The position numbers were made by a program, and so were the translations under genes. Source: Mobula hypostoma (lineage: Eukaryota). Taken from it: DNA of 64,000 nt. The notes beneath the pieces are model-generated. The model was not told the origin of the DNA and made no database searches. It was given only the letters and a program-made list of their open reading frames with translations. Below, piece by piece: positions 5,501-64,000 of this stretch; the stretch's first letter is position 1; each line of letters starts with the position of its first letter. The DNA is taken from the NCBI RefSeq assembly GCF_963921235.1, contig NC_086108.1:90336001-90400000 (forward strand), written 5' to 3'.

Positions 5501-5849
5501 AATAGGTCTGAGGCTTTTGTCACATAACGACACCATTTTCAATAAAGATCAGTGTCAAAGAAGTTGCATCATTGCTCCAATCTTTTCTCAGTCTTCCTTA
5601 CTTACTACTATGCTGCAGCTCACCTCAAATAAATTTCCTGCAGCTAATCTTCAGAACCTGGGGAAACCATTGAAACTACAGAGACAATACTTGACGACAG
5701 GTAGAACCAAGATCACCAAGTGCTCAGAGGACCTGCCTGCTGCAGCAGGTGATACGCGGATTTGTACAAACTCCTTTAAAAGCATATAGGAGAGTGCAAG
5801 AGCAAGGTTGTCTACCAGCTTACCTCTGCTACATCGCATTGCCCTCAAC

Positions 5850-7035
5850 CGATAATGGTATTAGTTTACTAGTGTCACATGTACCCAGATACAGTGAAAA
5901 GATTGCCTTATCATATCATTACCCTGTGCATTATGGTTAAACAAGTTAATGCAACAACAATGCAGAATGAATTTAAATAGCTTTAGAGAAAGTGCAGTGC
6001 AGGTAAACAATAAGGTGAAAGATCACAACGAGGTACGATAGGTTGTGAGGCCGAGAGTCTATCTTATCGTACTAGACAATGATTTAATAGTCTTTATAAC
6101 AGTGGGGTAGAAGCTATCCTTGAACCTGGTGGTAAGGGAGGGAGGAGAAGATGGCGACGCGACGCAGCGCAGTGCACGCGGCCGTTCCAAATGATATCGT
6201 ATGTGTTAACTAGGGGCCATGCACAATCCTGATTTGATGGAAACAGCCATGAGAAGCATGGAAGAACACCAGGAGAAACTTCTGAAATGCCCACTTCGCT
6301 GCTGCTGCTACTGTGCGATCGAGAATCTCCGGAGGGGAAGGCCCCAAATCCTCAGCTTTGCCTGTTGTTGGGGCCGGGGTCGAAGCACTCGGCAGAGATG
6401 GTGCTCGGTTTCGGAGAGCTGGTTGGAGACTCGGAGTTTTCAGATGGACTCTGAGTCGGACTGTGGTTGAATGCTTAAAGAATGCTGCATCGGCAAGTTT
6501 GCGGCGCTGGAGGTTCACCATCTGCGTGAGATGATAGGACTTTCGAGAGACTTTGAGACTTTTTACCGTGCCCATGGTCTGTTCTTTATCAAATTACGGT
6601 ATTGCTTTGCACTATTGTAACTATATGTTATAATTATGTGGTTTTTGTCAGTTTTTCAGTTGGTTTGTCATGTGTTTCTGTGATATCATTCTGGAGAAAC
6701 ATTGTATCATTTCTTAATGCATCCATTATTAAATGACAATAAAAGAGGACTGTGTGTCCTCATAGTCTAATTTTATCTAAGTGCTTTCTAGTTCTTCTAC
6801 CCCACGGGAGATGGGAAAAGAGAAGATGTCCAGGGTGGTTCGGATCCTTGATTATGCAGGCTGCATTACTGAGGTATGGAGAAGTATAGCCAGAGTTCAT
6901 AGAGGGCAGGCTGGTTTCCATGATGTGCTGAATGAGCTGTGTCTATCCCTCTCTGCAGTTTCTTGCAGCCACATGCAGACTGGTTGCCACACCAAGGTGG
7001 AATATATTCAGATGGGGACAATCTATGGATGCTTT
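5850..7035 (-). mobile_element. Rex1/Babar-like LINE 3' fragment, split by the insertion at 6137-6780
   Basis: Flanks match the 3' region of the Rex1-like element at 25021-26945 and the copy at 51190-51550. Confidence 0.6.
6137..6780 (+). mobile_element. Non-coding non-autonomous retroelement with a CpG-rich 5' end starting AAGATGGCG
   Basis: The 5' ~350 bp is homologous to 45268-45640 on the minus strand; ends with AATAAA and a short repeat-like tail; no real ORF. Confidence 0.7.
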
Positions 7036-7059
7036 GATTAATAGTTGGTAAGCTTCACA

Positions 7060-7545
7060 CTAAAACCCAAGAAAATGTGGACCATTTCCCATATATTAGG
7101 AGTCATCTCTTGGCAAAGGCAGATGTCAGTGCTGAAATCCATCAAACTTTAGCAGATTGAGCTGAAGAGTACTTGAAGATCAGAGCTTCAAAAAACATAA
7201 ATCTCGTGATCTACAGGACTGCAATGGTCTCTGCCCTCCATTTGGTTTTGAGACCTAGACTACATATGGCAGGCATCTAAAGGCACTGGAAAAATGCTAA
7301 TTACACATTCTCTGAAAAATCCTCCCAACCCACTGGAAGAATAAGCGAATCAATGTACACATCATCTCTTACACTAATGTCCCCAGCAATAAGGTCTTAG
7401 TTACTCTCAATCAGCTACGTTGGGCAGGTCATGTTGATTGCATGCCCAACATCAGATATTCAATTCTGGGCTGTGCCATGGAAAATTGCCAGGCAAACAG
7501 ACAGAGGGAGAAAGATGGAGAGATTTTCAGAGGAGTTCTCAAAAC
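7060..7545 (+). mobile_element. Degraded RTE-clade LINE fragment
   Basis: DHFPYIxSxL...EIHQ and LRWAGHV motifs typical of the RTE RT C-terminus. Confidence 0.6.
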
Positions 7546-7569
7546 CGCAAAGATAAAAGATTTTGTAAG

Positions 7570-7870
7570 ATTAGTTTTATTTGCCATATGTATCTCAAAG
7601 CATACAGTGAAATGCATAATTTTGCATCAAAAACCAACATAGTTAGGGAATATGCTGGGGCAGCCCACAAGTGTCATCTTGCTTCTGGCACAAACTTAGT
7701 ATGCCTACAACTTACTAACCCTAACTGTATGCCCTTTTGGAATGTGAGAGGAAACCGCAGAACCCGAAGGAAATCCATGTGGTCACAGGGAGAACATAAA
7801 AACTCCTTACAGATAGTGGCGGGAATTGAATCTCAGTCGTCCACTTGCTAGCACTGCAAAGTGATTAACA
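7570..7870 (-). mobile_element. V-SINE/HE1-like SINE
   Basis: Reverse-complement V-domain motifs plus a B-box-like gggaattgaatc. Confidence 0.7.
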
Positions 7871-8269
7871 AACTGCTTCAGTAACTTGCCACATTGAATA
7901 AGTAAATTCCCCACTGCCTCTGAGCCTCTTGCCCGTGACCACTTAAAAACGGAGAAGGGACAGTTGGAATCGTGTTGAGAACTTAAAGGCTGTGCATCAG
8001 GATCACAGAGAAGCCCTGTGTAGGTGTCAAAAGGTTCACCCCAACCTCGCTAACTTGGGAAAAGTCTGTCATTCCCATTTTGGTCCCATTAGCCTCCTTA
8101 AGCTTGATGAATCAACGTGGAAACAAGTCGTCCCTGATCCCAAGAGATGGCTGAAGAATAATATTTGCAACAGTGTGGTCAAAATCTGAATGGATGACCA
8201 CATTGCACATAGAGTTTGCACATAGCAAACTCCCATGAGGAGTAAAGTAGTAAAGAGCAGATAATATTT

Positions 8270-8510
8270 TCTTATTGATGTTACTAAAGGAACAAATATT
8301 GTCTAGAATGCCGGAAATAACTCTCCTGCTGTTAAATTGAATTGCTGAATCTTTTACATGCAATTGAATGGCACACAGTAATGTCTTCACGTCACATCTG
8401 CCAGATGGCATCCTTGAGAATACAGCATACTTTCAGTGTGCTGCGGGAGCATCGTTCTGTGTTTTTGTACTTCATCCTCCAGAGCGGGATTTGAAATCTA
8501 AAAGCCACAA
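8270..8510 (-). mobile_element. Old Deu-domain SINE relic (SacSINE/AmnSINE-like)
   Basis: Resembles the reverse complement of the Deu core and head (gaatcttttacatgc...agatggcatcc...gcgggatttgaa); recognised from memory. Confidence 0.45.
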
Positions 8511-9494
8511 GGGGTTGGAAGTAATATAATGATATGAAAACTGGCTGACAGGCAGGAAACAAAGAATAGACATAAACTGGTCTTTTGACAGTGGAGGAGG
8601 TAATGAGAGGAATACTACAGAGAACAGTGCTTAGGAGCCAGTAGTTCGATGTATGAATCAATGAGTTGGCTGAGGGAACCAATTGCAGTCAGTTTGCAGA
8701 TGAGTGAACTCGAGTTCGGAGGAAGATACAAAAAGGCTTCAAGGTAAGATGTGTTGAGCTACAGATGCAGTATAATGTGGATTGGATCATCCATTCTGAT
8801 GCTGAAGTTCGATGGAGGGTCTATCCTTCCATAAAGGGGTTCCCCTTAAAAGTACCCTGTTCTAGTTACTGCACTTGTTAGTACTTTCATCATCCTCCCT
8901 GGCATGGCCCATTATCTCTGTTCATTTTTGCTATCTCAGAGTTCACAAGAGTCTTTCCTTCACTTTAAATTTATGGGAATGGAAACTACTTTCCGACTGC
9001 CCCATTTAGTCCAAGGGATAGTCAGTGTCTTTGAGCTAATTAACAAGCAGCTAATCTCATCACTGTGGCCTAACCAGTTTAAATTGCTCTCTGAAATCAG
9101 AATGCAGGCAGAAGAAAGGAAACAGACTGTGTTTGTGGAACTGGGTTCAATAGCTCTGCCTGGGTGTTTACTGTTTTGTGTTTGGATACATGTGTCTCAG
9201 AGTGAAAGTGTATGAGATACGTTGTTGGAGTAAAACAACAATTCTTCCATGTGGGGCAGCACATTACCCTTTTAGAGAACCTAACTGATTGTCACAGGAA
9301 ACATACAAACAACAATTTATTTATTATTGTATCTTTTAGTATACTATGCCAAAGGTACTTCATAGAAGCAATGAGGCAAAATGAATATTCAGTTGCAAAA
9401 GCAGGTATCTAGAGGGTAACTAAAAGTCTGATCCATAAAGTTTAAGGACTGCTGTACAAAGGAAGAATAATGCAGAGTCTAGCAATGGTAGAGG

Positions 9495-13304: not shown

Positions 13305-13885
13305 AGGACCATAAAACTTTGCAAGAGAAATAGGCCATTCAGCCCATCAAGTCTGTTCTGCCATTCCATCATTGCTGATTTATTATCCCTCTCAAGCCCA
13401 TTCTCCTGACTTCTCCCCATTACTTTCTGATCAAGGACCTCTCAACATCCACTTTAAATGTACCTAAATATTTGGCCTCCACAGCCATCTGTGCCAATGA
13501 TTCACTACCTTCTGACTAAAGAAATTCCTTCTCATCTCAGAGAGGACCAAAGGGTCACACATATATTCTGAGGTTGTACCTCTGGTGTTGGATTCTCCCA
13601 CTGTAGGAAACTTGTTACATACACCTGTTAGGGTGCATTCTCCAGTTACCTTATAAGGTAACCGTAGCCTTCAGCCAACATCCTTTTCAAATCCACTCTA
13701 TCTAGGTGTTCAATATTTGATAGGTTTCACTGAGTTTCCCTTCATTCTTCAAAACTCCAGTGAGTACAGGCCCAAAGCCATCAAATACACCTCACATGTT
13801 AACAGTTACATTCCCGGGATCATTCTTGTGAACCTCCTGTCGACCAATCTCCAATTTCAGTTTATCCTTGGATAAGGGGCCCACT
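13305..13885 (-). mobile_element. CR1 LINE 3' fragment
   Basis: Reverse complement of CR1 3' UTR and RRFTRMIPG-like coding remnant. Confidence 0.75.
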
Positions 13886-15070: not shown

Positions 15071-16211
15071 TCAACATATCTGTTGTGTGCCTACTTCCAG
15101 ATAGATTTTCTCTGTTGTTCTGCTTTCTTTGTAATAACTTTCGGTAGAACATAACCGCCTGTTTTGACATGAACCATTTCAAAAGTCCTCTGTTATTTGA
15201 ACACAACAGCTTTGAAACAATATTTGCAGAAAGGTTCAATGTCTGTTGCTTGCTTCTGTGAATGATTATCTTTCTGTAAACCTGTTTGTTACGTTTTGTA
15301 ATGAAAAGTGTCAGCCATGACTTATATTAACATTGCATTTGAAGTGATGTGGGTGTTGGGTTATTATCCATGGATTGTGGATGGGTTAGGGTGAACTCCA
15401 AGAAGTGACAGCTATTTTCTTGATAACAGGCATGTTTAGTGCAGATCCTACATGTATTCTTGGCCTGGAATGTTCCTTCCCAGTTTAGTTCATTCACGTA
15501 GAACTGATTTTATTGCATGCTAGCTGGCAATTCTGTAGTGAATGGTGAGCTAGTTGCTGTGCCAGAGTCGGATCGCACCTGACTTCTGTGCTTGCACATT
15601 GCAATGCACATTTTAGTAGCAAACCAGAGGTCATATTGAAGTATCCATTCTCCTGTTCCATCACTGGACAGCATTCAAACAAGGCTGACAATCAGTTGTA
15701 TTGTTTGCAGGGTCCAGTTGCCTTTCAGATTCTGATTTATTCTTTATGTACATCAAAATATGCAGAGAAATGCACAATTTAACAACCAGCAGATCCAAGG
15801 GTCTAAGAATCTTGCGTCTAAGTAGCATACCCACAAGGCTCGGCAAAACAGCACGGGACACAAAATCGAATACAATAGAAAAAACAAAACAACAATAGCA
15901 ATACAAGCCCGACTCCTCCCTCACACTCACACCCTCTTCCAACACCAGGACAAGCCATCTTTGGCCTTCAGCCTGTGGACTTGGATTTACAGACATTGGG
16001 CCTTCGATATCCCCAGTGGACTCGAGGTGCCAGCCATTGGGCCTTGACTTCCAAACTTCTAATTGACCTTCAGGCTTTGATCTTGAGTATTGACCCCAAG
16101 GACTTGCCAATGCTGTTGAAGAGGATCTGAACTTCAGGCCTCGACCTCCATTTTCGCTGAGGATGAGACCTTGAACACTGGGCCTTGAACTCCAAGCCTG
16201 TTGATTCGCAT

Positions 16212-16540
16212 ATACGAGGAATTCTGAAGATGCTGGAAATTCAAGCAACACACATCAAAGTTGCTGGTGGACGCAGCAGGCCAGGCAGCATCTCTAGGAA
16301 GTGGCACAGTCGACGTTTCGGGCCGAGACCCTTCGTTAGGACTAACTGAAGGAAGAGCTAGTAAGAGATTTGAAAGTGGGAGGGGGAGGGGGAGATCCAA
16401 AATGATAGGAGAAGACAGGAGGGGGAGGGATGGAGCCAAGATCCTCCCCCTTTTCTTTCTCCCTGGGCCTCCTGTCTCATGATCCTCTCATATCCCTTTT
16501 GCCAATCAACTGTCCAGCTCTTGGCTCCATCCCTCCCCCT
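16212..16540 (-). mobile_element. Penelope-like 3'/terminal-repeat copy with an internal inversion
   Basis: 16212-16440 is near-identical to 63768-64000; 16441-16540 is the continuation in inverted orientation compared with the collinear copy at 18140-18240. Confidence 0.85.
16307..16344 (-). ncRNA. Minimal hammerhead ribozyme motif, core-mutated (CUAACGA, G5A)
   Basis: Minus strand reads UAGUC-CUAACGA-AGGGUCUCGGCCC-GAAA-C-GUC-GACUG. Confidence 0.7.
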
Positions 16541-16639
16541 GGCTGTCACTCCACTTCTGCTATCAGTCCACTTCTGAGGCAGTTTTACATCGTCAAAAGT
16601 GCTGTCATGTAGACAAGAAAGTAAAACAAGATCTAATCT

Positions 16640-16925: not shown

Positions 16926-17975
16926 CTCTATTTCATTCTTCTTTCTCTGTTTTATTCTTCTAGCATACTGTTTGTGTGGTTTCTTTAATATGAAACCTTT
17001 TTAACCAGCCAAGGAATGGAACACCCAAATATAAACTGATAGATGTAGGGATCTATAGAACAGGTTGGATCCTTTAATACAGGTGTGCTCTGGTTTACTG
17101 TTGGAATTTGTTGCTTGTTTTGAGAATGATGAATATTGATCAGAATTTGTATCTTAAAATCTAATTTGCAGTCATGGTAATAGGTTATGTTTAATGGTTA
17201 ATGCCTTTAAATGGGTGGCTGCTGTTTGGACAAACAAGAGGTGGAATAATACTAGAATTACCATGGCCATTCTCCCATTGGCCACCAATGGATCTGGATG
17301 TCTTTTGAAGTGCAGTCCAATATGCTTATTAAAAGTGTTGGTAGGCAATCTCATCAGCTTTTACAGTAATGCAACGACAAATGATCCAGTGAACCGTAGG
17401 CGACTGTGTGAACAACTACATTCTGAAAGTGTGATGGAATGGACAGAAAGACTACATGCATCTCTCCGTTTAAAATTTGAGGCATAGAATTCTTGGTGAT
17501 GCAACAAAGAATGGACATGTAAATTCAGAAGGAAGATACTGATGGAAATGGCATAACAACAAAAGACAGATACTAACATATTAATTCCTTAGTGTGTCCA
17601 GATTCATAAAACTATTAAAATAAACAATGGTATTTGGGGTTTATAAATTGAGGCATAGAACAGAGAGATAAAGAATATTTGGTGTATTTTTAGAGACTGC
17701 AATACCTAGCATTTGTAACTGACTTGAACCTTGGAAATTAGCCCCAGGAGCTTCTCAGGGATGTGTTCAGAGACAAAAAAAAAAGATAGCTGAGATGTTG
17801 GGTAGATATTACTACATCTGGCTGTCAAAAGATATTTGTCATTAATTAATATTTATGGCTAAAGTTTTTCAGCTTTGGATCCTTCAATTCAAAAATCTTT
17901 TTCCTTTCCCATTAAGTTATTGAAAGTGGATGTAGATAACAGTGCAAAAAAGATGAACACCTAGGTCCTAAGTGA

Positions 17976-18401
17976 CACACATCAAAGTTGCTGGTGAACG
18001 CAACAGGCCAGGCAGCATCTTTAGGAAGAGGTACAGTCGACGTTTCAGGCCGAGACCCTTCGTCAGGACTAACTGAAGGAAGAGTTAGTAAGAAATTTGA
18101 GAGGGGGAGGGGGAGATCCAAAATGATAGGAGAAGACGGGAGGGGGAGGGATGGAGCCAAGAGCTGGACAGGTGATTGGCAAAAGGGATATGAGAGGATC
18201 ATGGGACAGGAGGCCCAGGGAGAAAGAAAAGGGGGAGGGGGGGGAATAACCCAGAGGATGGACAAGGGCTATACTGCGAGGGACAGAGGGAGAAAAAGGA
18301 GAGAGAGAGTAAGAATGTGTCTATATAAATAAATAACGGATGGGGTACGAGGGGGAGGTGGGGCATTAGCAGAAGTTTGAGAAGTCAATGTTCATGCCAT
18401 C
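17976..18401 (-). mobile_element. 5'-truncated Penelope-like element: last ORF codons plus 3' terminal repeat
   Basis: Begins with PDGMNIDFSNFC* (GIY-YIG domain C-terminus, compare LQPDGMNIDFSFR* at about 20490-20530); flanked by AGGTCCTAA(G/C)TGA at 17963-17975 and 18402-18414. Confidence 0.9.
18034..18071 (-). ncRNA. Minimal type-I hammerhead ribozyme motif with an intact core
   Basis: UAGUC/GACUG helix I, CUGACGA, AGG/CCU helix II, GAAA, palindromic ACGU helix III; predicted cleavage after GUC between 18039 and 18038. Confidence 0.8.
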
Positions 18402-20110
18402 AGGTCCTAACTGAACAGGTTTCCAAGCATATATCTTCTCAGTCAAAGACTGGCATCAGAATATTAAAAATCAGCAGGATTGGACATCTTTACAGTATTG
18501 CTAGAACACTTGGAACATTGTTCAGAAGAAATGCTTCATCATTGAAGAAAGGATAAGAAATTCTGATCTTTGGAGAAGGCCTTTAACGTGAAGACTACTG
18601 ACTTGTCATGGCATTGGCTTCTAACTTTGCTCAACAAGCATCACTGGAACTACCAGTTCAATTTTACACTCCAGTTATTACCACCCACAGTCACGCTGAA
18701 GAGCAGCTTGAACATCTGCCTCTACTTCACCCTGTCCCATCAAGCGTGGGAGTATTGTGAAGCCGCAGCACATGTTTAAGGGTGACCTTTGTCGGGTAGA
18801 GGAAGTTTAAATTCAGATCTGTTTCAATTTAGCAAATGAGTGCCATCTCTGAAATGGCAACTCACTACATATAAGCCAGGTGGTTTGGCATCATGATGCT
18901 GTGTTAACATTTATAGAGCATGGTTGGTCATTTTTTTTTTCAACAGAACTCCTCTAATTATTCATTTTACTGAAGCTAATGTAATACTTCAGTCTTAAGA
19001 GTAAATTTGGCAAGCGCATTTGAACATGAGCAGTGTGTGTCACCGAGTTGTGGGCACTGTGCAAATTAGTGGCTGGAACATTTGATAAAATCTGCTAGTT
19101 GGATGCTTTTTGGTGGTGTGGTGTCACAAAATGTATGTGTTCATTTTTTATTTTAAAATAAAAAGTTCATGTTCTAAGACACCATGTCTCAATTAATAAC
19201 AAAAACATTAATACATATATTTTCAGACAATAATTATGATAGTTTAATGATATCTGGGGAATTATTTTATGATGGTGTTTCTTTAATGCTTGTATCTCTC
19301 AACTTGAGTATTTAATTATCTAGTACAGCAATAATTAAGTCAACACCTTTTTAACTTCCAACATGAATTCAGCTCTGTTGCATTTGTGTTGTAACTCCTG
19401 ACCTTGCATTGAAAAGTGTCTGGGGACCAGGGAGTTGCTGGGGATGATTTAAGAATGGACTAGGTTGTGGTAAAGCAAACCTGCATTCCCAGAACAAGAG
19501 CTCAGTTGATCTTGAACTCCCCTGCATTTCTCTCCACAATAATTTCCATATTTTTCGATTTCAGTGTAAAAGTACATTTTCCTCTTATTTCTTCCCCTGC
19601 AAATTTCAAAGGAATTTTAAGAAAAGTTTGTATCATGCAATGTAGCTTTGCTACAGTATACTGTTGTATGAGAAGTTATTGTACCTCTGTCCCTTCTGCA
19701 TGCTTTTACTTGTGGCAAAGCCAGAGAACCTAGAGATTATCACCCTGGCAATTGGTTTTACATGTTCTTGCTCATAAGAACAGGAGAATAGATATATTGT
19801 GGTGAAGCTAGAGAACCATGCTCTCATGGTAGGCATGGCAAAAAATGAATGCATGAAATGTATACAACAGATCAAACAGAATGAGTAGAATCAGCCATTT
19901 CCTCTGTGTACTTTTGCATGCAATGTGTGGAGCTGTTCTTGAAGGCAGGTTCCATCATTGAGAGTGCAGGGAAGATATAAAATACATGGGAGGAGGGCAG
20001 TAGACATGGAGAAGCAAGACAGAGGTGAGCCCAGTGGTACCAGAGCTCATAGAGGAGTCAGAATTATTATCAGAATCAGGTTTAATATCACTGACGTATG
20101 TCATGAAATA

Positions 20111-22061
20111 TAAACACAGGAGATTTTGTGGATGCTGGAAAGCCAGTGCAACACACAAACAAAATGCTGGAGGAAGACAGCAGGTGAGGCAGCATCTATG
20201 GAAATGAATAAGAAGTCAATGTTTTGAACCAAGGCACTTGTTCAGGACTGGGAAGGAAGGGGGAAGATGCTAGAATAAAATGGTGGAGGGAGAGAGGCGA
20301 TAGGTTAAGACAGGTGTGTGGGGAAGTTAAAGAACTGGAGATGAAGGAAGCTGTTAGGAGGGGGGAGTGGACCATGGGAGAAGGGGAAGAAGGAGTGACA
20401 CTGGGGGTTGGGGGGGAGATGATGGGTGAGGAGAAGAGGTAGGAGGACAGAGTGGGGAATAGAAGAGGGAAGGAGGAGGGAAACATACTTTACCGGAAGG
20501 AGAAATCGATGTTCATTCCATCAGGTTGAAGGCTACCTGGAAGTAATATGAGATGTTGCTCCTCCACCCTGAGAGTGATCTCATCATGGCAAAAGAGGGG
20601 GCCATGAACAGACATGTTGGAACAGGAATGGGGTCAGGAATTTAAATGGTTGGCTAATGTTATATTCTGCTTATGGTGGTTGAAACAGGGGTGCTTAACA
20701 AAGCGGTCCTCCAATTTACGTCGGGACTCACCAGTGTAGAGGAATCCAATTAGGAGCACCGGATACAATAGATGACTCCAGCAGATTTGCAGATGAAGTG
20801 TTCCCTAACCTGGAAGGCGTATTTAGGGCCCTGAATGGAGATAAAGAAGGAGACAAATTCTCCCTTGATTGGTCAAGGCATGAAGGGATATGAGGAGAAT
20901 GCAGGAGAATGGGGCTGAAAGGAAGATAGGATCAGCTATGATGAAAAGGTGGAGCTGATGTGATAGGTCAATTGCTGCAATTCTCCTTTATCTTACAGTA
21001 AATGGGCAGTGTAACATCTCTATCGCTTGCAGGGGTAAGTGCCAGGAGAACAAATGTGCCAGAGATGAAGGAACTGAGAAAATGAATAACATTTTTACAA
21101 GAGACAGAGTGGGAAGAGGTATAGTCAAGATCGGCATGGGAATCAATAGGTTTATAAAAGATTACAGTGGACTGCATCTCCAGAGATGGAGACAGAGATT
21201 GATAAAGGGTAGGAATGTGTTAGAAATGGACCAAATAAAATTTAAAGGCAGGGTGGAAGCTGGAGGTAAAGTTGATGAAATTGATGAGCTCAGCATGGGT
21301 GCATGAAGCTGCATCAATACAATTGTCAATGTAGCACAGGAAGAGTTTGGGTGCATTACAAGGGAAAACTTCGAACATGGACTGTTCAACGTGGCCAAAA
21401 AAAAAGGATGGCATAGCTAAGGCCTATGTGGGTCCCCATGGCTGCCTCTTGAGTAAGGAAAAACTGGGAGGAGCCGAAGGAGAAATTGTTGAGGGTGAGG
21501 ATCAGTTCAGCCTTACGGAGAAGGGTGATGGTGGAGGGGGATTGGTTGGGTCTTTTGTTGAGAAAGAAGTGGAAAGCGTTAATGCCTTCTTGATGGGGGT
21601 TTGAAGTGTATAGGGACTGGACATCCATGGTGAAAATGAGGTGGTCAAAGGTGGGAAATTGAAAGTTGTTGAGGAGATTGAGAGCATGTGAAGTTTCAGA
21701 GAGTGGAGGAGGAACTGAGCCAGTGGGGATAGAATAAAGTTGAGGTGTATGGACATGAGTTTAGTGGGGCAGAAGTGGGCCTACCGGACAGTCATGTTTG
21801 TTAGTCTTTGGTGGAAGGCAGAAATGAGTAATGTGGGGTATGGGAACTATGAGTTTGATGGCAGTGGAGGGGAGTTCTCCAGAGTTAAGCAAGGTAAAGG
21901 TCAGCAACCCTTTTGTCTGTGAGCAGAGGGCAGTGTGTTCACAAGAGGTAATATTGGAAAAGGAGTGAGGAAAGTTGAAGGTGAGCCGGTGGTGTTATTT
22001 ATTTTTGCTGGGATATGTGCCAGGAGGGAGAATAGTGGGAAGGGATGAATGGACATGAATG
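20111..22061 (-). mobile_element. Degraded Penelope-like retroelement (RT plus GIY-YIG endonuclease), internally deleted, with a CR1 3' piece inserted at about 20857-20998
   Basis: MDVQSLYTSNP, AAMG, YIDN(D), YKPIDSH..LDYTSSH RT motifs; GVIYCIRCS..LYTGES GIY-YIG; EEQHL..GSLQPDGMNIDFS terminus; TSD TGTC(A/G)TGAAATA at 20099-20110 and 22062-22073, splitting a Rex1 tail. Confidence 0.9.
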
Positions 22062-22990: not shown

Positions 22991-24845
22991 TATATCCAAG
23001 TACATATATTTCACCATATACAACCCTGAATTTCATTTTCTTGTGGGCATACTTCATAAATCCATAATAGAATAATTACAATAATAGAATCGCTGAAAGA
23101 CGGCACCAACTTGGGAAATGGTTGCAGAATATTGTTTGTCTTTCACACAAGATGATGCTGGTTAACCTCAAAAAATCTTTAAGGGTAACGCAGACATTTA
23201 CTACAAGTGTACCGAGTCTGCATGGCATTCAGACAAATTATGGCAATCATGGTGCTAGGCCACAGATACCCTGTGAATGTAGATAGGGAAAGCCCTGGAT
23301 TGGCCTGGAATCTAAGAGTACAGCATATGTTGAAACTGAGATGGAAATGAATGCAGTTTAGGTATAGTAAAGGAGAAACAACGTGGGAGTGGATAGACAA
23401 TTCATGGTGAGCTAATCTGTAGGCTGCAAATTCCCAATGAATAGCACAAATACATGGCATGTTTCAAAGGGAGATGTGGGCCAAACGTTGGCACATGGGA
23501 CGAGCTCTGATAGACTTCTTTGTCGGTATGGATTAGTTGGGTCAAAGAGCCTGGGTCTGTACTCTTACCCTAAGATATTCATTGCACTTAGGATGGTAAG
23601 TTTTGACATGAGGGAGGATAGAGAGGAGGATGCATAGTTGGGAAAGGAAACAGAGAAGCTACAGTGACAACAAGTTGTAGGCAAAAGTAGTTTGAACTCA
23701 GCCATGAAAGAAGATTACATTTTGGAGTCAGAAAGCAAAAAAAAAATGACAAAGACAAGTTCAAAGAAGAAGCAGGCAATGAGAAAGCAAATGAAGCTTA
23801 AAGATGATATGAACTATGACTCTTGTCATTCAAATTATCCCCCAATGTATGTCTGATCTGTGTTCTTCAGAGAATATCAAATTGAGCCCACTTAGTCCTC
23901 AAAAGAAACATCAAGCAAAATTAAGGCTCAGAAGTTTCTTTCATAATCTGGGCAATGGCAGATCAAGCCTTAGGCTACCAGTAGGTAGTGTCAGTGTGAT
24001 ACAGCTCTGGCAGGCAGGTGTATGAGTGGAGTATTCTGATGGGGCAGACACTTAGAGACATGCTTCAAAAGATCTAGCCTATATCAAAAGATGCTAATGG
24101 AAAGAAAAGAAGTGCAATTTAGGAATTGGAAGAGAAGGAAAGTAGTGATGCAATGCGGCCTGAAAACGGAGATACGATTATTTAGAATGCCGTAAAGCAA
24201 TGAATATCCTTATTAATCTCATGATATTTTGTAGCCTGACCAATTACTTTGATGTGAAACATGGTTTTACTGCCTCGAAAAGACAAAAAACCGTTGAGCC
24301 CTCTTCTGTTCAGAGATATCAAACTGATAATCTGTTCCGTGAATCAGTAGCTTAGTAAAACACCGATTCTCAAGACAGACAAACAAGTTTAAAGTTTTTG
24401 TTTAAAGAAGCTACATAGAAATTCAATTGCATCACTCTTTTCAGGGTTTTGCAATTGAAAATTTCCATTGTGAAACACTTCTGGGCTGTTTGATGTCTTT
24501 CCAGAAATTTTACAAGGCATTTCTTACAGGAGTTGCCCTTTGTGCCTGACGCAAGTTCGGCCCCTGTATTTGTTCAGGACAATGTCATTTGTTGTTCAGC
24601 AACCCCTTTGGAGCATGAACTGTGTTATTTTGAGTCGACAAATCTGTGCACATTTTGTGGTATCTTAATGCCCACAGAGAAATTAATTATTTGCTGTTAT
24701 ACCTTATATGAATGTACAATATCACCAATAATAAAACACCAAAGCATATCTGTAATGGTCTTAAAAAAAACAATTATTCTTTATTCACAGAATAACAAAG
24801 CTTTACTAATTCCACTTACCCCCAAACTTTAATTGTTTAAATATA

Positions 24846-24980
24846 AGTGCAAGAGATTCTGCAGATGTTGGAAATCTTGAGCAACACATGTAAAATACTT
24901 GAGGAACTCAACTGGTCAGGCAGGATCTATGAAAGGGAATAAACAGTCAACATTTCAGACCAAAATGCCTTCATCGGTTT
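24846..24980 (-). mobile_element. Older Penelope terminal-repeat fragment with a degenerate hammerhead core
   Basis: gattctgcagatgttggaaatc start; minus strand CCGAUGA..GAAAUGUUGACUG. Confidence 0.7.
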
Positions 24981-25020: not shown

Positions 25021-26945
25021 AGAATCAAGTTTATTATCACCGGCATGTTAACTTAGCAGCAACAGTTCAATGCAATACATAATCTAGCAGAGAGAAAAAT
25101 AAATAAAATAAAATAAAACATAATAAATTAACATGTAAATCAATTATGTATATTGAATAGATTTTAAAAAACATGCAAAAGCAGAAATACTGTATAATTT
25201 AAAAGAAAGCGAGGTAGTGTCCAAAGCTTCAATGTCCATTTAGGAATCAGATGGCAGAGGGGAAGAGGTTTTTCCTGAATCACTGAGTGTGTGCCTTCAG
25301 GCTTCTGTACCTCCTCCCTGTTGGTAACAGTGAGAAAAGAACATGCCCCGGCTGCTGGAAGTCCTTAATAATGGACGCTGCTTTTCCGAAACACCGCTCC
25401 CTAAAGATGTTCTGGGTACTTTGTAGGCTAGTACCCAAGATGGAGCTGACTAGATTTACAACCCTCTGCAACTTCTTTTGGTCCTGTGCATTAGCCCCCC
25501 CCCCCGCCCCCACCCTCATATCACCCCCAGTGATGCAGCCTATCAGAATGCTCTCCATGGTACAGCTATAGAAGTTTTTGAGTGTATTTGTTGACATGCC
25601 AAATCTCTTTAAACTCTAATGAAGTATAGCTGCTGTCTTGCCTTCTTTATAACTACATCGATATGTTGGGACCAGCTTAGATCCTCGAAGATCTTGACAC
25701 CCAGGAACTTGAAGCTGCTCACTCTCTCCACTTCTGATCCCACTATGAGGATTGGTATGTGTTCCTTCATCTTACCCTTCCTGAAGTCCACAATCTGCTC
25801 TTTCGTCTTACTGACGTTGAGTGCCATATTGTTGCTGCGGCACCACTCCACTAGTTGGCATATCTCGCTTCTGTACACTCTCTCGTCACCACCTGAGATT
25901 CTACCAACAATGGTTGTATCATCAGCAAATTTACAGATGGTATTTGAGTTATGCTTATCCACACAGTTATGTGTATATAGAGAGTAGAGCAGTGGGCTAA
26001 GCACACACCCCTGAGGTGCACCAACCTCTCAAAGCATTTCATCACTGTCGATGTGAGTGCTACTAGGCAATAGTCATTAAGGCAGCCCACATTATTCTTC
26101 TTGGGCACTGGTATGATTGTTGCCTTTTTGGAGCAAGTGGGAACTTCTGCCCTTAGCTGTGAGAGGTTGAAAATGTCCTTGAATACTCCTGCCAGTTGGT
26201 TGGTATAGGTTTTCAGAGCCTTTCCAGGTACTCCATCAGGACCTTCTGCCTTGCGAAGGTTCACTCTCTTTAAAGACAGTCTAAGATCAGCCTCTGATAT
26301 GGAGATCACAGGGTCATCAGGTGCAGCAGGGATCTTCACAGCTATGGTTGTATTCTCTCTTTCAAAACGTGCATAGAAGGCATTGAGTTCATCTAGTCGT
26401 GAAGCATCGCTGCCTTTCCTACTATTGGGTTTTGCTTTGTGGGAAGTAATGTATTGCAGACCCTGCCAGAGTTGCCATGCATCTGATATTGCCTTCAACC
26501 TCATTCAAAATTGTTGCTTTGTCCTTGAAGTAGCCCTCCACAAACCATACCTGGTTTTCTGGTACAGGCCTGGGTCACCAGACTTAAATGCCACAGATCC
26601 AGCCTTCAGCAGACAAGGTACCTCCTGGTTCATCCAGGACTTCTGGCTTGGGAATGTGGGCACACACTCATCCACACAGGTTTTAATGAAGTCGGTAACA
26701 ACTGCGGCATACTCATCCAGATTCAAAGATGAATTCCTGAATACAGTACAGTCCACCGATTCAAAGCAGTCCTGTAGGCACTCCTGTGCTTCCCTTGTCT
26801 ATTTCTTAGTCCTCACTGCTGGTGCTGCAGTCTTCAGTCTCTGCCTATACTCAGGGAGTAGAGTACAGCTAGGTGGTCAGACTTCCCGAAATGAGGGCAT
26901 GGAATAGCGCGGTAGGCATTCTTGATGGTGGTGTAGCAATGTTGA
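25021..26945 (-). mobile_element. Rex1/Babar LINE, 5'-truncated, with an internal RT deletion
   Basis: ORFs contain KAEGPDGVPG, IIPVPKK..LNDY..VALTS..MKCFERLV, PQGCVLSPLLYSLYT, KFADDTTIVG, LNVSKTKE.IVDFRK, FKFLG; (GATTCT)-type tail. Confidence 0.92.
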
Positions 26946-37504: not shown

Positions 37505-37760
37505 CATAAGACCATGTTCATAAGAACAGAACTAGAACATTCAGTCCAGCGAGTTTCCTCTGCCATTCCATCATGGATGATTTATTATATCTCTCAAACC
37601 CGTTTTCCTGCATTCTCCACACAACCTTCAAAGCAGTGACTAATCCAAAACCTATCAACTTCTGCTTAAATATATCCAGTGACTTGGCCTCCACAGCCGA
37701 CTATGGCAATGAATTACTGAGATTCAACACCCTCTGGCTAAAGAAATTACTCCTCAAATT
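37505..37760 (-). mobile_element. CR1 3' UTR fragment; probable template of the local duplicate at 38575-38763
   Basis: cataagaccat tail (reverse complement); near-identical to 38575-38763. Confidence 0.75.
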
Positions 37761-38920
37761 CCTTAGAAAATGGATTTCATTATTTCATTAAACTATTTGC
37801 ATTTGTTCCTTCAGCACATTTAGGTCCATTGCAAAAAATAGTGACAACACATTACTTTGTATAGAATTTCAATGTGTTCTTGAAGAACTGTGATCTTCCA
37901 GGAAAGCTGACCCTTGACTTTCAGGGGATCCATTCTTGTGGGTGGTGCTGGCTTTAGAAAACTTTGGCCATTTTGGATAAATATAGCATTTTCCTCAGTG
38001 CTGGGTGGGATTAGCCAAGGTAGCTCCTTTTCCTCTGGCATTGACAAGATTGGAAGATGGAGTCCTGATATTATATGGATATGAACATGAACTGCTGGAA
38101 ACACTAGGCAGGTTAGCCAGCATCCATGGAAGGAGAGACAGGTTCAGGTTGATGACCTTTGTCAGATGATTCTAATGGTCAGAACATTTCAAGTTGAAGA
38201 TCTTTTGTCAATTCTCTTGCCTTTTCCATTGAATACTAGCTGATCTGATGAATGGTTCTAATGTACCCAGTCGAAATGTTAAATGTATTCTGTTCCATAG
38301 ATGCTGCCTAACCTGCTGAGTTCCTCCAGCAATTTGTGTGTGTTGCTCAGCATGCCCTGGTTTTATTTTGGATTTTTATCATCTGTAGCTCTTGGTTTAT
38401 TTACTGCTGCAATTTTGCTTTTTATTTCAAAGGCAGCAAAACACTGGAGAAGGTCCAGGGAGATTCACCTGATAACTATTTGGGATGGATTATCTTTGTC
38501 ATGAGGATAGACTGGATAGTTGTTTTTTTTCCCCGTTTGAGTGGAGATGGCTGAGGGGAGACCTGATAAAGGTCAACAGAATTAGAACATTCAGTCCAGC
38601 GAGTTTCCTCTGCCATTCCATCATGGCTGATTTATCATCTCTCTCAAACCCGTTTTCGTGCATTCTCCACACAACCTTGAAAGCAGTGACTAATCCAGAA
38701 CCTATCAACTTCTGCTTTGAATATACCCCATGACTTGGCCTCCACAGCCGACTATGGCAATGAGGGGATAGATAGGTTAGATAAGTATTATATATTATCC
38801 TGTGAAAGAGGCATATATAACAAGGGGGCATAGGTTTAAGTTAAGAGTAAGAGGTTCAGTATGTTTATTTTCAGCCAGATAATGGTTGGGATTTTGAATG
38901 CACTGCCTGAGAGGAGATTC

Positions 38921-42409: not shown

Positions 42410-42700
42410 TATCACCTACAACTCTGTTACTATCCTCAACTTCCCTCCTACACCTGACTCCATCTGTCAGTCAATCCCTCCTCACCTGAAAACACCTGTT
42501 GATTTATAGTTCTTGTCCGACCCCTACCCCTCACCTCTTTATACTTGCTAACTCCCCTCGACTCTTCTAGCCCCGCTGAAGAGCCACAACTTGAAATGTT
42601 GCCTCTATTTTCCTTCACAAATGTTGCCTGACCTGCTGAGTCCCTCCAACAGATCATATATTGCTTCAGATTCCAGCATCTGCAGTCTTTTGTGTCTCTG
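42410..42700 (+). mobile_element. Old Penelope terminal-repeat fragment
   Basis: Pyrimidine-rich tract, degenerate ctgaaga..gaaatgttg, then gcctgacctgctgagt..ttccagcatctgcagtc. Confidence 0.65.
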
Positions 42701-49515: not shown

Positions 49516-50595
49516 TGAAAATTTTGTTGAACCCGAATGAAAACTGTGTGGGGTTTGTTTATTTTCCATTAACCTTGTGGTTTTTCTCAAGGTGCTTCCC
49601 CCCCACCCCCCAAACTAATGCCTCAAAGATGTTTTGATCTGTTAATTCATCAATGTAAATTGCTCCTAGTGTAGGTGAGTGGTGAGTGAATATTGGGAGA
49701 TGTGTGTAAAAGAGCACATGAGAGAAAATAGATTACAGGGAAAATATTGGTTGAATATCATAGATGAGATTGCTCTGCAAGCTGGCATACTCTTGTTGAG
49801 TTGTATGGCTTCCCTCTGTGATGTAAGAAAATACGAAACGTAATAGAACAAAACCTTCTTATGAGCTGAGACACCATAGTCGAGGCATCAGATGAGCAAT
49901 TTGTTTCTGCCTTTATTATAGAAGAGTAAGTTGCTGATGTAAGAGAAAAAGGAGAGTTTGCACTGAAATTGAATGAATTTTTTTGAAAATGAGACATTTT
50001 TCATGATTGTAAGTGTTGTCACACCATCCAGATGGAATGCACTCTAGATGACTTTGGGCAATAATACACCTGGTCTTAATTTTCCGTTTTCCTTGTGATA
50101 GCAAAAGATTAGCAGTTTGGAAATGTTATACTCTTGTTCAATAAAGTGGATCAAGATTAATTAATGGCTTCAGGTTAATCAGCTTAATGTTGTTTTGGCA
50201 AACTTTGGAGACGATCTTGAACAAAAGGAATTGGCATCTGGTAAAGAATAGGCTAAGAAATACTTCCTTTGTTTGCCCAACTTAATTGAATTCTTTGATG
50301 AAGTAACAATAGAGTTGATATTACCTAAATGTATTATCTAACGTTACATTTGATTAGGTACCAAATCATAGAATTATTAACAAAGCTAAAGACCATCGGA
50401 TTAATGGGACAATGGCTGTGTGGATAATAAAACTGGATTTTCCAAATTGATGGAAGTATTCAGTGATTTCTGTAAGATACTTGTTAGAACTAGTATTCTT
50501 TGTTATGTTAATAACCTCATATATCACACATTGTATTTCCAAATTTATATATTTCCTCAACATAGAAAGAGACCCTATTGAGTGCCTTCTCTATG

Positions 50596-50730
50596 ATGGT
50601 CCTGATGTAAGGTTTTGATCTGACATGTCGACAGTTCCTTCCCTCCCACAGGTGCTGCTGAACCCACTGAGTTCCTTCAGTAGATAGTTTGTTGCTACAG
50701 ATTCCAGATCTGCAGTCTCTTGTGTCTTCT
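50596..50730 (+). mobile_element. Old Penelope terminal-repeat fragment with a degenerate hammerhead core
   Basis: gtcctgatgtaagg..gacatgtcgacag..attccagatctgcagtc. Confidence 0.6.
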
Positions 50731-51596: not shown

Positions 51597-51833
51597 AGAA
51601 ACATACATCAAAGTTGCTGGTGAACGCAGCAGGCCAAGCAGCATCTATAGGAAGAGGCGCAGTCGATGTTTCAGGCCGAGACCCTTCGTCAGGATGAAGG
51701 GTCCTGACGAAGGGTCTCGGCCTGAAACATCGACTGCGCCTCTTCCTATAGATGCTGCTTGGCCTGCTGCGTTCACCAGCAACTTTGATGTATGTTGCTT
51801 GAATTTCCAGCATCTGCAGAATTCCTGTTGTTT
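51597..51833. mobile_element. Palindromic Penelope terminal-repeat insertion with a 15-bp TSD
   Basis: Perfect inverted arms 51600-51694 and 51702-51796, loop TGAAGGG; TSD TCCCTCTATGCTTTG at 51582-51596 and 51834-51848. Confidence 0.95.
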
Positions 51834-54795: not shown

Positions 54796-55189
54796 TATGA
54801 CTAAAATTAAAACACAAAAAACTTTGGAATAACTCAGCTGGTGAGGCAACATCTGTGCAAGGTACAACAGAGATAACATTTAAGATCTAGGGCTCTTCTT
54901 TAAGATGACAGAGTGGAAATTGGCAGCATAAGTAATGTATTTTTCAAGCTCTGTGTGGGTACAGGAAGCAATGCTACTGTTTGCATTGCTGTACCAGAAT
55001 GTTGAGGGTGAAGGAGGCCCACAGTGAAAATGGACAGGAATAGAAAGAGAGTGGAGTTGAAGGAAGAACGATCAACTAAGGTTAAATTAGTTTATAGCTA
55101 TATGCACCAGGGTGCAATGAAATTCCAGGTTGGCTTGAAGTCCATAGAGTAAACAGTGTACCTCATAATAATAAACACACTGAGTAGCA

Positions 55190-55329
55190 CTCTCAAAATG
55201 GCCTGAGGAATTCAGCAGGTCAGGCAGCATCTATAGAAAGGAATAGAAAGTCGGTCCTGATGAGGGCTGGAACATTGACTCTTTATTCTCTTCCATGGAT
55301 GCTGCTGGCCTGCTGAGTTGCTCCAGCAT

Positions 55330-55368
<39 letters not shown>

Positions 55369-55405
55369 CTGGATTTCCAGCATCTGTGGAACCTCTTGCA
55401 TTTCT
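55190..55405. mobile_element. Older inverted Penelope terminal-repeat pair with a (GT)16 microsatellite
   Basis: Minus arm 55190-55252; plus arm from GTCCTGATGA at 55254; GT run 55333-55364. Confidence 0.7.
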
Positions 55406-62141: not shown

Positions 62142-62900
62142 TTAAGATGGCGCTACTGAAGATGTCTGACAGCTTAATGGTAGATCAGAGGAAATATGAC
62201 TAAAATATTATTAATAGCACCTTTCTTGAAGTAAATAGTGGTCACCACAGACGATGAAGCACATGGAGGTGAAGCAGATCCAAAAGATGGGCCATGTGGG
62301 AGTATCGCAAAGCAGGAACACAACAACATCTTAAAGACATGGCTGCAGTCAATGTTGTTACCGCTGCCTCTGTTGGAGTGAATGATTTGGAGAGCAGTCG
62401 ATGCGGAAGAGTTTGAAGCCCGTCTGCCAAACCTGGGTGCGAGGTTGGATCGCTCCAAGCGCGGAGCTGATTTGGTAAGATCGAGAACGACTTCGGGCTT
62501 TGCTGCCCAAGCGTGTTGCTGCACCGAGATCCATTTCCTAGAGCAAGGCACTACTCAATGCTTGGACAACTTAAATGCCTGGTCAGGACCCCTGATGAAG
62601 GGTCTCGGCCTGAAACGTCGACTGCACCTCTTCCTAGAGATGCTGCCTGGCCTGCTGCATTCACCAGCAACTTTTATGTGTGTTATCTAAAAGCTCAGTC
62701 TGGTTTGGAATGCTATCGTTTTCATTTATTGTTTGCATGGTGTGTATGTGTCTTTTTTCCCCTCTTTCTCTGCACAGTGCTTATGGTCTTCCATAGTTTT
62801 TAAATTGGGTTCTTTAGGTTTCTTGCTTTGTTGGTGCCTGTAAGCAAACATATCTCAAGGTGTATACTTTGTATATTCTTTGATAATAAATGAACCTTGA
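62142..62900 (+). mobile_element. AAGATGGCG-type non-autonomous element carrying a Penelope terminal-repeat insert
   Basis: Related ends to 48636-49515; the insert at 62591-62685 matches the hammerhead family. Confidence 0.65.
62591..62625 (+). ncRNA. Hammerhead core with the helix I 5' strand lost by truncation
   Basis: C-CUGAUGA-AGGGUCUCGGCCU-GAAA-C-GUC-GACUG. Confidence 0.6.
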
Positions 62901-63356: not shown

Positions 63357-63767
63357 TAGGTCTTGGGGATGTTTCCTCAAGACCTATTAGGTACATTCTC
63401 AGGAAAGGAGTTGGACCTTTAGGACTGAAATGAGAAGAATACTCTGTATGCAGCAGATTATTGTTTTTTTTGGGAAAGTGTGCATGCTCATTTGTTGGGA
63501 AAATTCAAGGCTTACAATTTTTTTTTCCCCTTAAGTCTTGGAAATAGATCCATTTGGTCATTTAGTCCATGCAACAATTCCATGCCCCATATTTCCTATA
63601 ACCTTTCTCACATGCCCTTTAATGCTCCCCACAATCCTCCTACCACCGAACAGTAACAGGGATAACTTAGGTTAGTGAATCAGCCGAACATGCAGTATAA
63701 GACATAATAGCAGCAATAAGCGATCCAGCCCATTGAGTCTGCACCACCATTCAATCGTGGCTGATCT

Positions 63768-64000
63768 ATACACGAGGAATTCTGCAGATGCTGGAAATTC
63801 AAGCAACACACATCAAAGTTGCTGGTGAACGCAGCAGGCCAGGCAGCATCTCTAGGAAGAGGTACAGTCGACGTTTCGGGCTGAGACTCTTCGTCAGGAC
63901 TAACTGAAGGAAGAGCTAGTAAGAGATTTGAAAGGGGGAGGGTGAGATCCAAAATGATAGAAGACAGGAGGGGGAGGGATGAAGCCAAGAGCTGGACAGG
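63768..64000 (-). mobile_element. Penelope terminal-repeat copy running off the window end; hammerhead motif at 63865-63902
   Basis: Near-identical to 16212-16440; UAGUC-CUGACGA-AGAGUCUCAGCCC-GAAACGUC-GACUG with a weakened helix II. Confidence 0.88.

What the first reader, a model, noticed from the sequence alone, without database searches (positions are those of the whole stretch)
18034..18071. Dispersed family of minimal hammerhead ribozymes carried by Penelope-derived short repeats
Seen: the minus strand reads UAGUC-CUGACGA-AGG[GUCUCGG]CCU-GAAA-C-GUC-GACUG, with all hammerhead core nucleotides, a 5-bp helix I and a 3-bp helix II. Helix III is only the palindrome ACGU, which cannot close within one molecule. 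Close relatives lie at 16307, 51701 (both strands), 62591 and 63865; degenerate ones lie near 20220, 24950, 38270, 42575, 50600, 54870 and 55255. This copy starts with PDGMNIDFSNFC*, linking the family to the GIY-YIG element at 20111-22061. Established: Penelope-like elements carry minimal hammerheads proposed to cleave as dimers. Inference: here the ribozyme-bearing end has spread densely (about 12 copies in 64 kb) almost without coding sequence, like a retrozyme or SINE, and could cut host pre-mRNA in trans-dimers.
Basis: partly seen in the sequence, partly recalled or inferred. Interest (0 to 1): 0.72.

Follow-up and report, generated by a model that had tools for sequence, protein, structure and literature searches.

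The report
Minimal hammerheads in Penelope retrotransposon fragments
The self-cutting RNA motif is real, but it is the known "minimal hammerhead" that Penelope-type jumping genes carry at their ends; here it lies in shortened, mostly damaged copies that crowd a cartilaginous-fish genome, and nothing found here shows that it cuts host RNA.

Summary
It is not a separate SINE or retrozyme. The 18k copy is a 426-bp, 5'-truncated Neptune-type Penelope insertion. It has a 13-bp target-site duplication, an empty site in a related organism, and the last codons of the GIY-YIG ORF, into which relatives continue. The family shows the Penelope hallmarks: an optional ~33-nt tail, head-to-head inversions, and an RT + GIY-YIG parent at 20111-22061. 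Core bases are better conserved between subfamilies than most flanks (43/54 vs 25/72). Only 1 of 15 arms keeps every ribozyme feature. Its monomer folds inactive, and no host gene was identified, so cutting of host pre-mRNA is unsupported. Dispersed single minimal hammerheads from truncated Penelope elements were described in 2014, and this scan has noted the same thing before, in this genome and in shark genomes. The one open lead: many copies begin exactly at the ribozyme's 5' edge, which suggests a defined RNA end there.

The parts
18034..18071 (-). Minimal type-I hammerhead: helix I 18067-18071 with 18034-18038; CUGACGA 18060-18066; bulged A 18059; helix II 18055-18058 with 18047-18050; GAAA 18043-18046; palindrome ACGU 18040-18043; predicted cut between 18039 and 18038
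17976..18401 (-). The insertion that carries it: a 426-bp 5'-truncated Penelope-like copy (ORF end, ~295-nt pyrimidine-rich 3' UTR, hammerhead, conserved box, short 3' end without tail)
17963..17975 (+). Left target-site duplication (13 bp, 1 mismatch to the right copy)
   Evidence: empty site in organism C, record 9
18402..18414 (+). Right target-site duplication; its first 4 bases also match the element (5' junction microhomology)
18366..18407 (-). Last codons and stop of the GIY-YIG ORF (PDGMNIDFSNFC*); relatives run on into the ORF beyond 18405
   Evidence: table 7 (322 contigs in X1)
17996..18019 (-). Box downstream of the ribozyme, as conserved between subfamilies as the catalytic core; candidate protein-binding or RT-initiation signal (inferred)
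   Evidence: 108/132 non-CpG matches
16207..16540 (-). Young copy with the 3' tail, G5A in the core, and an inverted 5' piece (16443-16540 on +)
20111..22061 (-). Old, broken, 5'-truncated Neptune-type PLE: RT, Cys-rich linker, GIY-YIG, decayed hammerhead near 20220, tail; 12-bp target-site duplication; internal deletion in the thumb region
24845..24980 (-). Old short copy beginning at the hammerhead, with tail
38092..38165 (-).
   Evidence: E 0.0012
38245..38355 (+). Old short copy
42490..42692 (+). Old copy that keeps part of the 3' UTR upstream of the hammerhead, with tail
50593..50721 (+). Old 129-bp copy from the hammerhead's 5' edge to the tail, between 11-bp target-site duplications
51597..51833 (.). 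Young head-to-head inverted pair joined at the hammerheads' 5' edges; tail on one arm only; perfect 15-bp target-site duplication (51582-51596, 51834-51848)
54812..54909 (-). Very old short copy
   Evidence: E 0.0013
55183..55404 (.). Old head-to-head pair: the left arm begins at C17/G1.1, the right arm at the hammerhead's 5' edge; (GT)16 expanded inside at 55333-55364
62583..62684 (+). Young short copy without tail, preceded by an 8-nt inverted piece of the hammerhead's start
63767..64000 (-). Young copy with tail and 3' UTR, cut by the window's end; core intact, mismatch in helix II

Best explanation
These are the ends (pseudo-LTRs) of a very abundant Neptune-type Penelope-like retrotransposon of a cartilaginous fish. 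Shown: the hammerhead lies about 300 nt after the GIY-YIG stop codon and about 60-95 nt before the element's two alternative 3' ends. Copies were inserted one by one with 11-15-bp target-site duplications, are 5'-truncated to different lengths, and are often inverted head-to-head. Inferred from work on other PLEs: the element's RT-endonuclease nicks DNA and starts reverse transcription inside the RNA at either of two sites, giving the short end or the tailed end. The hammerhead is copied almost every time because it lies next to those sites, while the ORF is rarely reached. The ribozyme was under selection in the source elements, where it probably cleaves weakly, as a dimer or with help from the element's protein. 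In scattered genomic copies it decays neutrally and is most likely inert.
For: Target-site duplications of 11-15 bp at 4 of 8 loci tested; the other four gave only 6-7-nt chance matches. Empty site in organism C, with flank-to-element junctions in organisms A and B. Young relatives continue into the GIY-YIG ORF (loose ends at 18405 in X1, X6, X10). The parent-type element is 49-64% identical to the seven closest PLE-like RT proteins, one named from zebra shark, and aligns to RT and GIY-YIG of the full-length P0008. Two discrete 3' ends about 33 nt apart, and inversions, are the PLE signatures in PMC11167929, PMC3846280 and PMC8557442. A distant Neptune-type element, L007, has the same motif about 100 nt after its stop, with three compensatory pairs in helix I. 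Core conservation in old copies vs the young consensus: 43/54, against 25/72 for the linker and 53/120 for the 3' end. In one search the motif is bracketed by piles of loose ends at 18033 and 18070. Only 1 of 15 arms is fully intact.
Against: No full-length or tandem element of the young subfamily was seen; no genome is held and a scan for the motif in metagenome contigs found nothing. The old element is a different subfamily (about 42% identity over the UTR, 25/40 over the hammerhead), so it is a relative, not the direct parent. The excess of copies that start at the hammerhead's 5' edge is not expected from random truncation alone. The covariation count rests on 6 sequences, and 3 of its 4 two-sided changes come from L007. 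Cells in the conservation test are not independent and the copies were found with a profile of the same region. No cleavage data.
Confidence: 0.82

Rival explanations
1. Refinement that can hold together with the best explanation: the template RNA has a defined 5' end just before helix I (a transcription start, or a processed end at the AG that precedes the motif). Internal initiation at the nearby site then yields a fixed 95-135-nt cDNA, like a strong-stop product, and such short copies may themselves be transcribed and copied again as a non-autonomous mini-element.
For: 5 arms at 4 loci start within 4 nt of C3 at a boundary fixed by a target-site duplication or an inversion (50.6k, 51.6k, 51.7k, 55.3k, 62.6k), and 4 old arms probably do too. 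The largest pile of loose ends in all four runs is at 18070. There and at 18069 the loose parts are long (median 90-255) and of low agreement (0.32-0.44), like the true 3' end at 17975 and unlike the subfamily switches at 18033, 18101 and 18405. Head-to-head inversions are centred there.
Against: Part of the 18070 pile is the old subfamily's different upstream sequence (its consensus matches the 20.2k copy). Depth over the upstream UTR is still 39-46% of the hammerhead's and 24-32% at the ORF end in X1 (the tool warns that contig depth is no copy number). Drop-off or template switching of RT at helix I would give the same edge. In D. virilis Penelope the start site lies 46 nt before an intron that ends at helix I, not at the ribozyme. 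Contigs cannot show RNA starts.
Confidence: 0.3
2. A separate non-LTR retrozyme or SINE that spreads through circular RNA or a Pol III promoter, independent of truncation of the parent PLE.
For: Very high copy number with little coding sequence. A 2026 preprint derives animal retrozymes from PLE pseudo-LTRs and reports them in one cartilaginous fish. Rare head-to-tail junctions of the bare hammerhead unit exist in contigs of three runs (tables 5, 5c).
Against: No tandem array of the family in the window. No tRNA gene. A recalled A-box pattern is at chance level (54 vs 61 expected) with no hit inside the short copies at 50.6k, 51.6k/51.7k or 62.6k. No loose-end pile at the cleavage site among the 24 rows shown (1587 not shown), whereas a circle-derived unit should be permuted there. 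Lengths vary up to the ORF.
Confidence: 0.08
3. Dispersed copies cleave host pre-mRNA by forming dimers in trans.
For: The architecture allows an intermolecular helix III, the copy number is huge, and a run guessed to be RNA covers both unique flanks of the 18k copy, which may equally be DNA.
Against: 1 of 15 arms is fully intact. The monomer's best fold (-11.0 kcal/mol) pairs the core with the cleavage site. The active dimer scores -11.5 against -22.0 for two monomers and -30.3 for the best, inactive, dimer (the model ignores tertiary contacts and Mg). No host exon was identified. Arms lie on both strands (9 minus, 6 plus). Published: no monomer activity and low dimer activity; the anole PLE hammerhead needs the element's protein and no RNA-seq reads end at its cut site; 1 of 9 Xenopus dimers cleaved.
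Confidence: 0.04

Closest known systems
Minimal hammerheads (min-HHR) in the pseudo-LTRs of metazoan Penelope-like elements (Cervera and De la Pena 2014, PMC4209133)
   Same: Type I; no loop III; palindromic 15.2-16.2; unpaired base between A9 and 10.1; helix I of 4-5 bp; mostly single motifs from truncated elements; pairs on opposite strands; found in Neptune elements of fishes.
   Different: Host group: no cartilaginous fish was named in the parts read or in the 2 supplement files searched (file 1 not searchable). Abundance is probably 10^5-10^6 against 4,000-9,000 for coelacanth and Xenopus. Pair 10.1-11.1 is G-U in about two-thirds of the laid depth in organisms A and B, but mostly G-C in organism C. 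Helix II is 4 bp.
Neptune clade of EN+ Penelope-like elements (PMC8557442)
   Same: RT, then Cys-rich linker, then C-terminal GIY-YIG; heavy 5' truncation; inverted 5' copies; optional 30-40-bp tail; hammerhead in the end repeat.
   Different: No full-length or tandem copy seen in the window; clade assigned from domain order, linker and similarity, not from a tree with named references.
Poseidon element of Anolis carolinensis (Frangieh et al. 2024, PMC11167929)
   Same: Two adjacent 3' ends that define a tail; inverted or two-strand insertion products; minimal hammerhead just upstream of the initiation sites.
   Different: Other clade. There the ORF starts inside the hammerhead; here the ORF start was not located. 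A preferred 5' boundary at the ribozyme was not mentioned in the parts read.
Non-LTR retrozymes of animals (bioRxiv 10.64898/2026.07.22.740005)
   Same: Non-coding, hammerhead-bearing, derived from PLE pseudo-LTRs; solo monomers are common.
   Different: Defined by tandem units that each bear a hammerhead; the window has none. Only rare tandem junctions appear in contigs from elsewhere.

Membership tests
PLE minimal hammerhead | Core CUGANGA, GAAA and NUH in type-I order | tested here: met
PLE minimal hammerhead | No intramolecular helix III; palindromic 15.1-16.1 stretch | tested here: met
   ACGU at 18040-18043; also in L007
PLE minimal hammerhead | Unpaired base between A9 and 10.1 | tested here: met
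PLE minimal hammerhead | G10.1-C11.1 pair | tested here: inconclusive
   G-U in this copy; G-C in 16k, 63.9k and L007, and in 32% (X1) to 83% (X10) of laid depth
PLE minimal hammerhead | Covariation in helices I and II across families | tested here: met
   4 pairs with two-sided changes in 6 sequences, 19 of 500 shuffles as high; slid controls 0-2; small sample, mostly due to L007
PLE minimal hammerhead | Self-cleavage as a dimer or with protein | not testable with these tools
   needs in vitro assay
EN+ Penelope-like element | Penelope-type RT followed by GIY-YIG endonuclease | tested here: met
   20111-22061 aligns to both domains of P0008, which has Pfam RVT_1 and GIY-YIG; the window's own broken pieces gave no Pfam hit
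EN+ Penelope-like element | Optional 30-40-bp tail at the 3' end | tested here: met
   tail in 16k, 20k, 24.9k, 42.6k, 50.6k, 51.7k, 55.3k, 63.9k; absent in 18k, 51.6k, 62.6k
EN+ Penelope-like element | 5' truncation with inverted 5' copies | tested here: met
   16k, 51.6k/51.7k, 55.2k/55.3k, 62.6k
EN+ Penelope-like element | Partial-tandem full-length copy with direct pseudo-LTRs | not testable with these tools
   none in the window; no genome held
Neptune clade | CX2-5CxxC linker between RT and endonuclease | tested here: inconclusive
   CKRxRCYT is present near 21030, with a stop inside and a frameshift before the third Cys; complete in the relative P0008
Neptune clade | Placement in an RT tree with named Neptune references | not tested
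   no named reference proteins were fetched
Non-LTR retrozyme | Tandem units, each with a complete hammerhead | tested here: not met
   no such array in the window; rare tandem junctions elsewhere
Non-LTR retrozyme | Circular RNA joined at the cleavage site | not testable with these tools
   only contigs were available
SINE | tRNA-derived head with Pol III boxes | tested here: not met
   no tRNA gene; recalled A-box pattern at chance level and absent from the short young copies; 5S- or 7SL-derived heads not matched in Rfam

The most novel reading that the evidence does not exclude
The element's RNA begins at the hammerhead, so internal priming 60-95 nt downstream makes a fixed short cDNA that accounts for a large share of several hundred thousand copies. 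Short copies keep the start signal and the conserved downstream box and can be copied again, which makes them a self-renewing mini-element. The rare head-to-tail repeats of the bare 38-nt ribozyme would then be footprints of RT jumping across helix I in a ribozyme dimer, that is, genomic evidence that the dimer forms in vivo, and these loci would be the few that really self-cleave.
Probability: 0.2. Interest if true: 0.5.

Novelty: new member of a known kind. Interest (0 to 1): 0.2.

Why it matters
As it stands, it adds a cartilaginous-fish Neptune family, with probably hundreds of thousands of copies, to a known list. The function of PLE hammerheads is still open. A family this large, with young and old subfamilies, offers a big natural data set of insertion ends. 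If the preferred 5' boundary at the ribozyme holds genome-wide, it would say where the PLE transcript starts or is processed and why solo pseudo-LTRs are so common.

Tried and rejected
Rfam scan: no hammerhead family among 19 matches at E <= 10; the miRNA hits are the element's inverted repeats. Whole genome: none held. Motif scans: 0 matches in metagenome contigs and viral contigs. The search for related loci gave 10 loci, 1 with a descriptor hit; several end before or shortly after their ORF stop. Sequencing runs: no RNA holder listed; X5 is only guessed to be RNA, so its higher depth downstream of the ribozyme (6.5x the UTR, against 1.3x in DNA run X1) is not used as evidence. Host gene: a crude splice scan and Pfam scans of 21 and 150 frames (150 of the 352 frames of 55-99 aa, and 19 of the 63 longer ones) found only LINE RT pieces; small exons could be missed. 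Folding: no significant stability for the motif or the downstream part (z from -1.45 to +1.04, 7 sequences), so no structure is claimed for the downstream box. Intron idea: the HHR strand has a branch-point-like word, a pyrimidine tract and AG right before the motif, and the old element has a donor-like site at its stop codon. The joints 18068-18372 and 18065-18373 fit an intron-less copy but fit a divergent subfamily equally well, and the young copy lacks the donor GT; left open. Cleavage-derived copies: one arm starts at C17/G1.1 (55253), but no pile at 18038/18039 is among the 24 loose-end rows shown. Literature on hammerheads in cartilaginous fish: 'hammerhead ribozyme' + 'Callorhinchus' gave 0 papers; 'Penelope-like' + 'elasmobranch' gave 2, one of which reports PLE expansion in whale-shark introns; searches gave nothing on the motif; two ray or shark genome preprints do not use the words Penelope or Neptune. 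Lunse et al. on dimer cleavage is not held and may list such species.

Full report
Observation. The minus strand of 18034-18071 reads exactly as quoted. It has a 5-bp helix I, the core CUGACGA and GAAA, the loop-less palindrome ACGU, and the triplet GUC with C17 at 18039. A minimal-hammerhead descriptor finds 2 sites in the window, against a mean of 0.085 in 200 dinucleotide shuffles. Helix II is better drawn with a bulged A and four pairs (-7.0 vs -5.6 kcal/mol), which makes pair 10.1-11.1 a G-U in this copy. Rfam has no hammerhead match.

The insertion. The copy spans 17976-18401 between 13-bp direct repeats with one mismatch. Contigs of four public runs were laid on 17800-18550. One contig of organism C covers both flanks with only 14 letters between 17950 and 18402, where the window has 12 letters before the left repeat; this is the empty site. 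Organisms A and B have contigs that run from each flank into the element. The copy begins in the last codons of a GIY-YIG ORF, and 322 contigs in X1 continue from 18405 with further ORF sequence. So the young subfamily itself is attached to a coding element elsewhere in the genome.

The parent type. The broken element at 20111-22061 has a 12-bp target-site duplication. Its RT pieces are 49-64% identical in their best segments to seven proteins, one named from zebra shark. It also aligns to both the RT and the GIY-YIG part of the 816-aa P0008. A Cys-rich linker, damaged by a stop and a frameshift, lies between the domains; this points to the Neptune clade as defined in PMC8557442 (passages read). 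It is an older subfamily than the 18k copy: 125/295 identical columns over the UTR and 25/40 over the hammerhead. The host is a cartilaginous fish by protein similarity; I did not identify it further.

Penelope hallmarks. Copies end at one of two places about 33 nt apart: eight carry the tail, and the young arms at 18k, 51.6k and 62.6k do not. This is the tail that Frangieh et al. traced to two internal RT start sites (PMC11167929, parts 1-2 of 4 read). Head-to-head inversions occur at 51.6k/51.7k (tail on one arm, perfect 15-bp duplication), 55.2k/55.3k and 62.6k, and an inverted 5' piece at 16.4k. The same arrangement is described in PMC3846280 (passages). Target-site duplications of 11-15 bp were found at 4 of 8 loci tested; the rest gave only 6-7-nt matches.

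Abundance. 124,533 contigs of X1, 71,186 of X6 and 23,454 of X10 were laid on the stretch. Summed depth at the motif is about 8 x 10^5 times that of the unique flank in X1. The tool warns that this is no copy number, but it agrees in order of magnitude with 13 loci per 64 kb. Family DNA makes up about 6.7% of the window. Depth over the upstream UTR is 39-46% and at the ORF end 24-32% of the motif's, so a large share of copies reach well beyond the ribozyme.

Conservation. Six old copies match the young consensus at 43/54 non-CpG core cells, against 61/114 for the rest of the motif, 25/72 for the linker and 53/120 for the 3' end. A 24-nt box downstream is as conserved as the core (108/132). These cells are not independent and the copies were picked with a profile of this region. 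In the laid contigs, piles of loose ends at 18033 and 18070 bracket the motif, as expected if subfamilies share the ribozyme but not its flanks.

Activity of the scattered copies. Only the 18k arm keeps core, both helices and the palindrome. The 16k copy has G5A, both 51k arms lost the palindrome, 51.6k and 62.6k lost most of helix I, 63.9k has a mismatch in helix II, and the nine old arms are decayed. The 18k monomer's best fold pairs the core with the cleavage site (-11.0 kcal/mol). The active dimer scores -11.5, against -22.0 for two monomers and -30.3 for an inactive dimer; this model ignores tertiary contacts and magnesium. Cervera and De la Pena found no monomer and low dimer activity (PMC4209133, parts 1-2 of 4 read). 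The anole ribozyme cleaved only with the element's protein and left no ends in RNA-seq. One of nine Xenopus dimers cleaved (bioRxiv 10.64898/2026.07.22.740005, parts 1-3 of 5 read). No host exon was identified in the window. Cutting of host pre-mRNA in trans is therefore unlikely.

Not a retrozyme or SINE. The window has no tandem array of the family, no tRNA gene and no A-box-like word in the short young copies (pattern recalled). No pile of ends at the cleavage site is among the 24 loose-end rows shown (1587 not shown). The 2014 paper already says that most motifs occur as single elements probably from truncated PLEs, and that pairs on opposite strands occur.

What is left unexplained. Five arms at four loci start within 4 nt of C3 at a boundary fixed by a duplication or an inversion, and four old arms probably do as well. 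In all four runs the biggest loose-end pile is at 18070. There and at 18069 the loose parts are long and heterogeneous, like a true end, although part of the pile is the old subfamily's upstream sequence. A transcription start, a processed end at the AG before helix I, or RT drop-off at helix I could each give this. In D. virilis Penelope an intron ends at helix I and the start site lies upstream (passages). Contigs of three runs also show rare head-to-tail junctions of the bare ribozyme unit (18070 back to 18032-18036). These are leads, not results.

Novelty. The kind is known since 2014. I found no paper that describes the motif in cartilaginous fish (searches; supplement search 60, with one file not searchable; bioRxiv supplements closed; Lunse et al. 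not held, known here only through a review passage). PLE expansion in whale shark is in print (passages). Earlier notes of this scan report the same thing in this genome and in shark genomes; I reached my reading before seeing them and count them as no independent support. Verdict: observation confirmed, interpretation partly supported, new member of a known kind, interest 0.2.

Noticed in passing
window 20837-21020: Another repeat is inserted, antisense, in the old Penelope element between the Cys linker and the endonuclease. It has four more copies (13323-13425, 37531-37647, 38565-38711, 47960-48147); the last lies downstream of LINE RT pieces on the same strand (46670-47239), so it is probably a LINE 3' end.
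   Followed up: partly
joints 18069/18070 back to 18032-18036: Head-to-tail junctions of the bare ~38-nt hammerhead unit in contigs of X1, X6 and X10, each at the depth of one to a few loci: natural cis-dimer candidates elsewhere in these genomes.
   Followed up: no
window 18069-18095 (-); also near 20245 (-) and 42570 (+): Branch-point-like word, pyrimidine tract and AG directly before the hammerhead; the old element has a donor-like site overlapping its stop codon near 20493. Possible intron ending at helix I, as in D. virilis Penelope.
   Followed up: partly
window 18047: Position 11.1 of the ribozyme is U in about 68% of laid depth in organism A, but C in 83% in organism C: a weaker-looking variant seems to have expanded in the A/B lineage.
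   Followed up: partly
window 55253 (-): The left arm of the old inverted pair begins at C17/G1.1, the predicted cleavage site; a single case, with microhomology at the junction.
   Followed up: no
window 55333-55364: A (GT)16 microsatellite has grown inside a copy at the short 3'-end site, with the tail still behind it.
   Followed up: no
window 16542-16576: A 17-bp tandem duplication sits at the outer junction of the inverted piece of the 16k copy.
   Followed up: no
window 25280-26800 (-), 34724-35101 (-), 41071-41556 (+), 46670-47826 (+): Broken LINE-type RT fragments (Pfam RVT_1 at 25612-26028, 46670-46960, 46964-47239); the other stretches look LINE-derived from their translations (recalled resemblance).
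   Followed up: no
window 40240-40766: Overlapping stop-free frames of 81-127 aa on both strands in a non-repeat-looking stretch, with no significant Pfam match; possibly an exon, not established.
   Followed up: partly
L007 4472-4500 (+): Minimal hammerhead about 100 nt after the ORF stop of a Neptune-type element in a metagenome contig, with a 3-bp helix I that covaries with the window's.
   Followed up: yes
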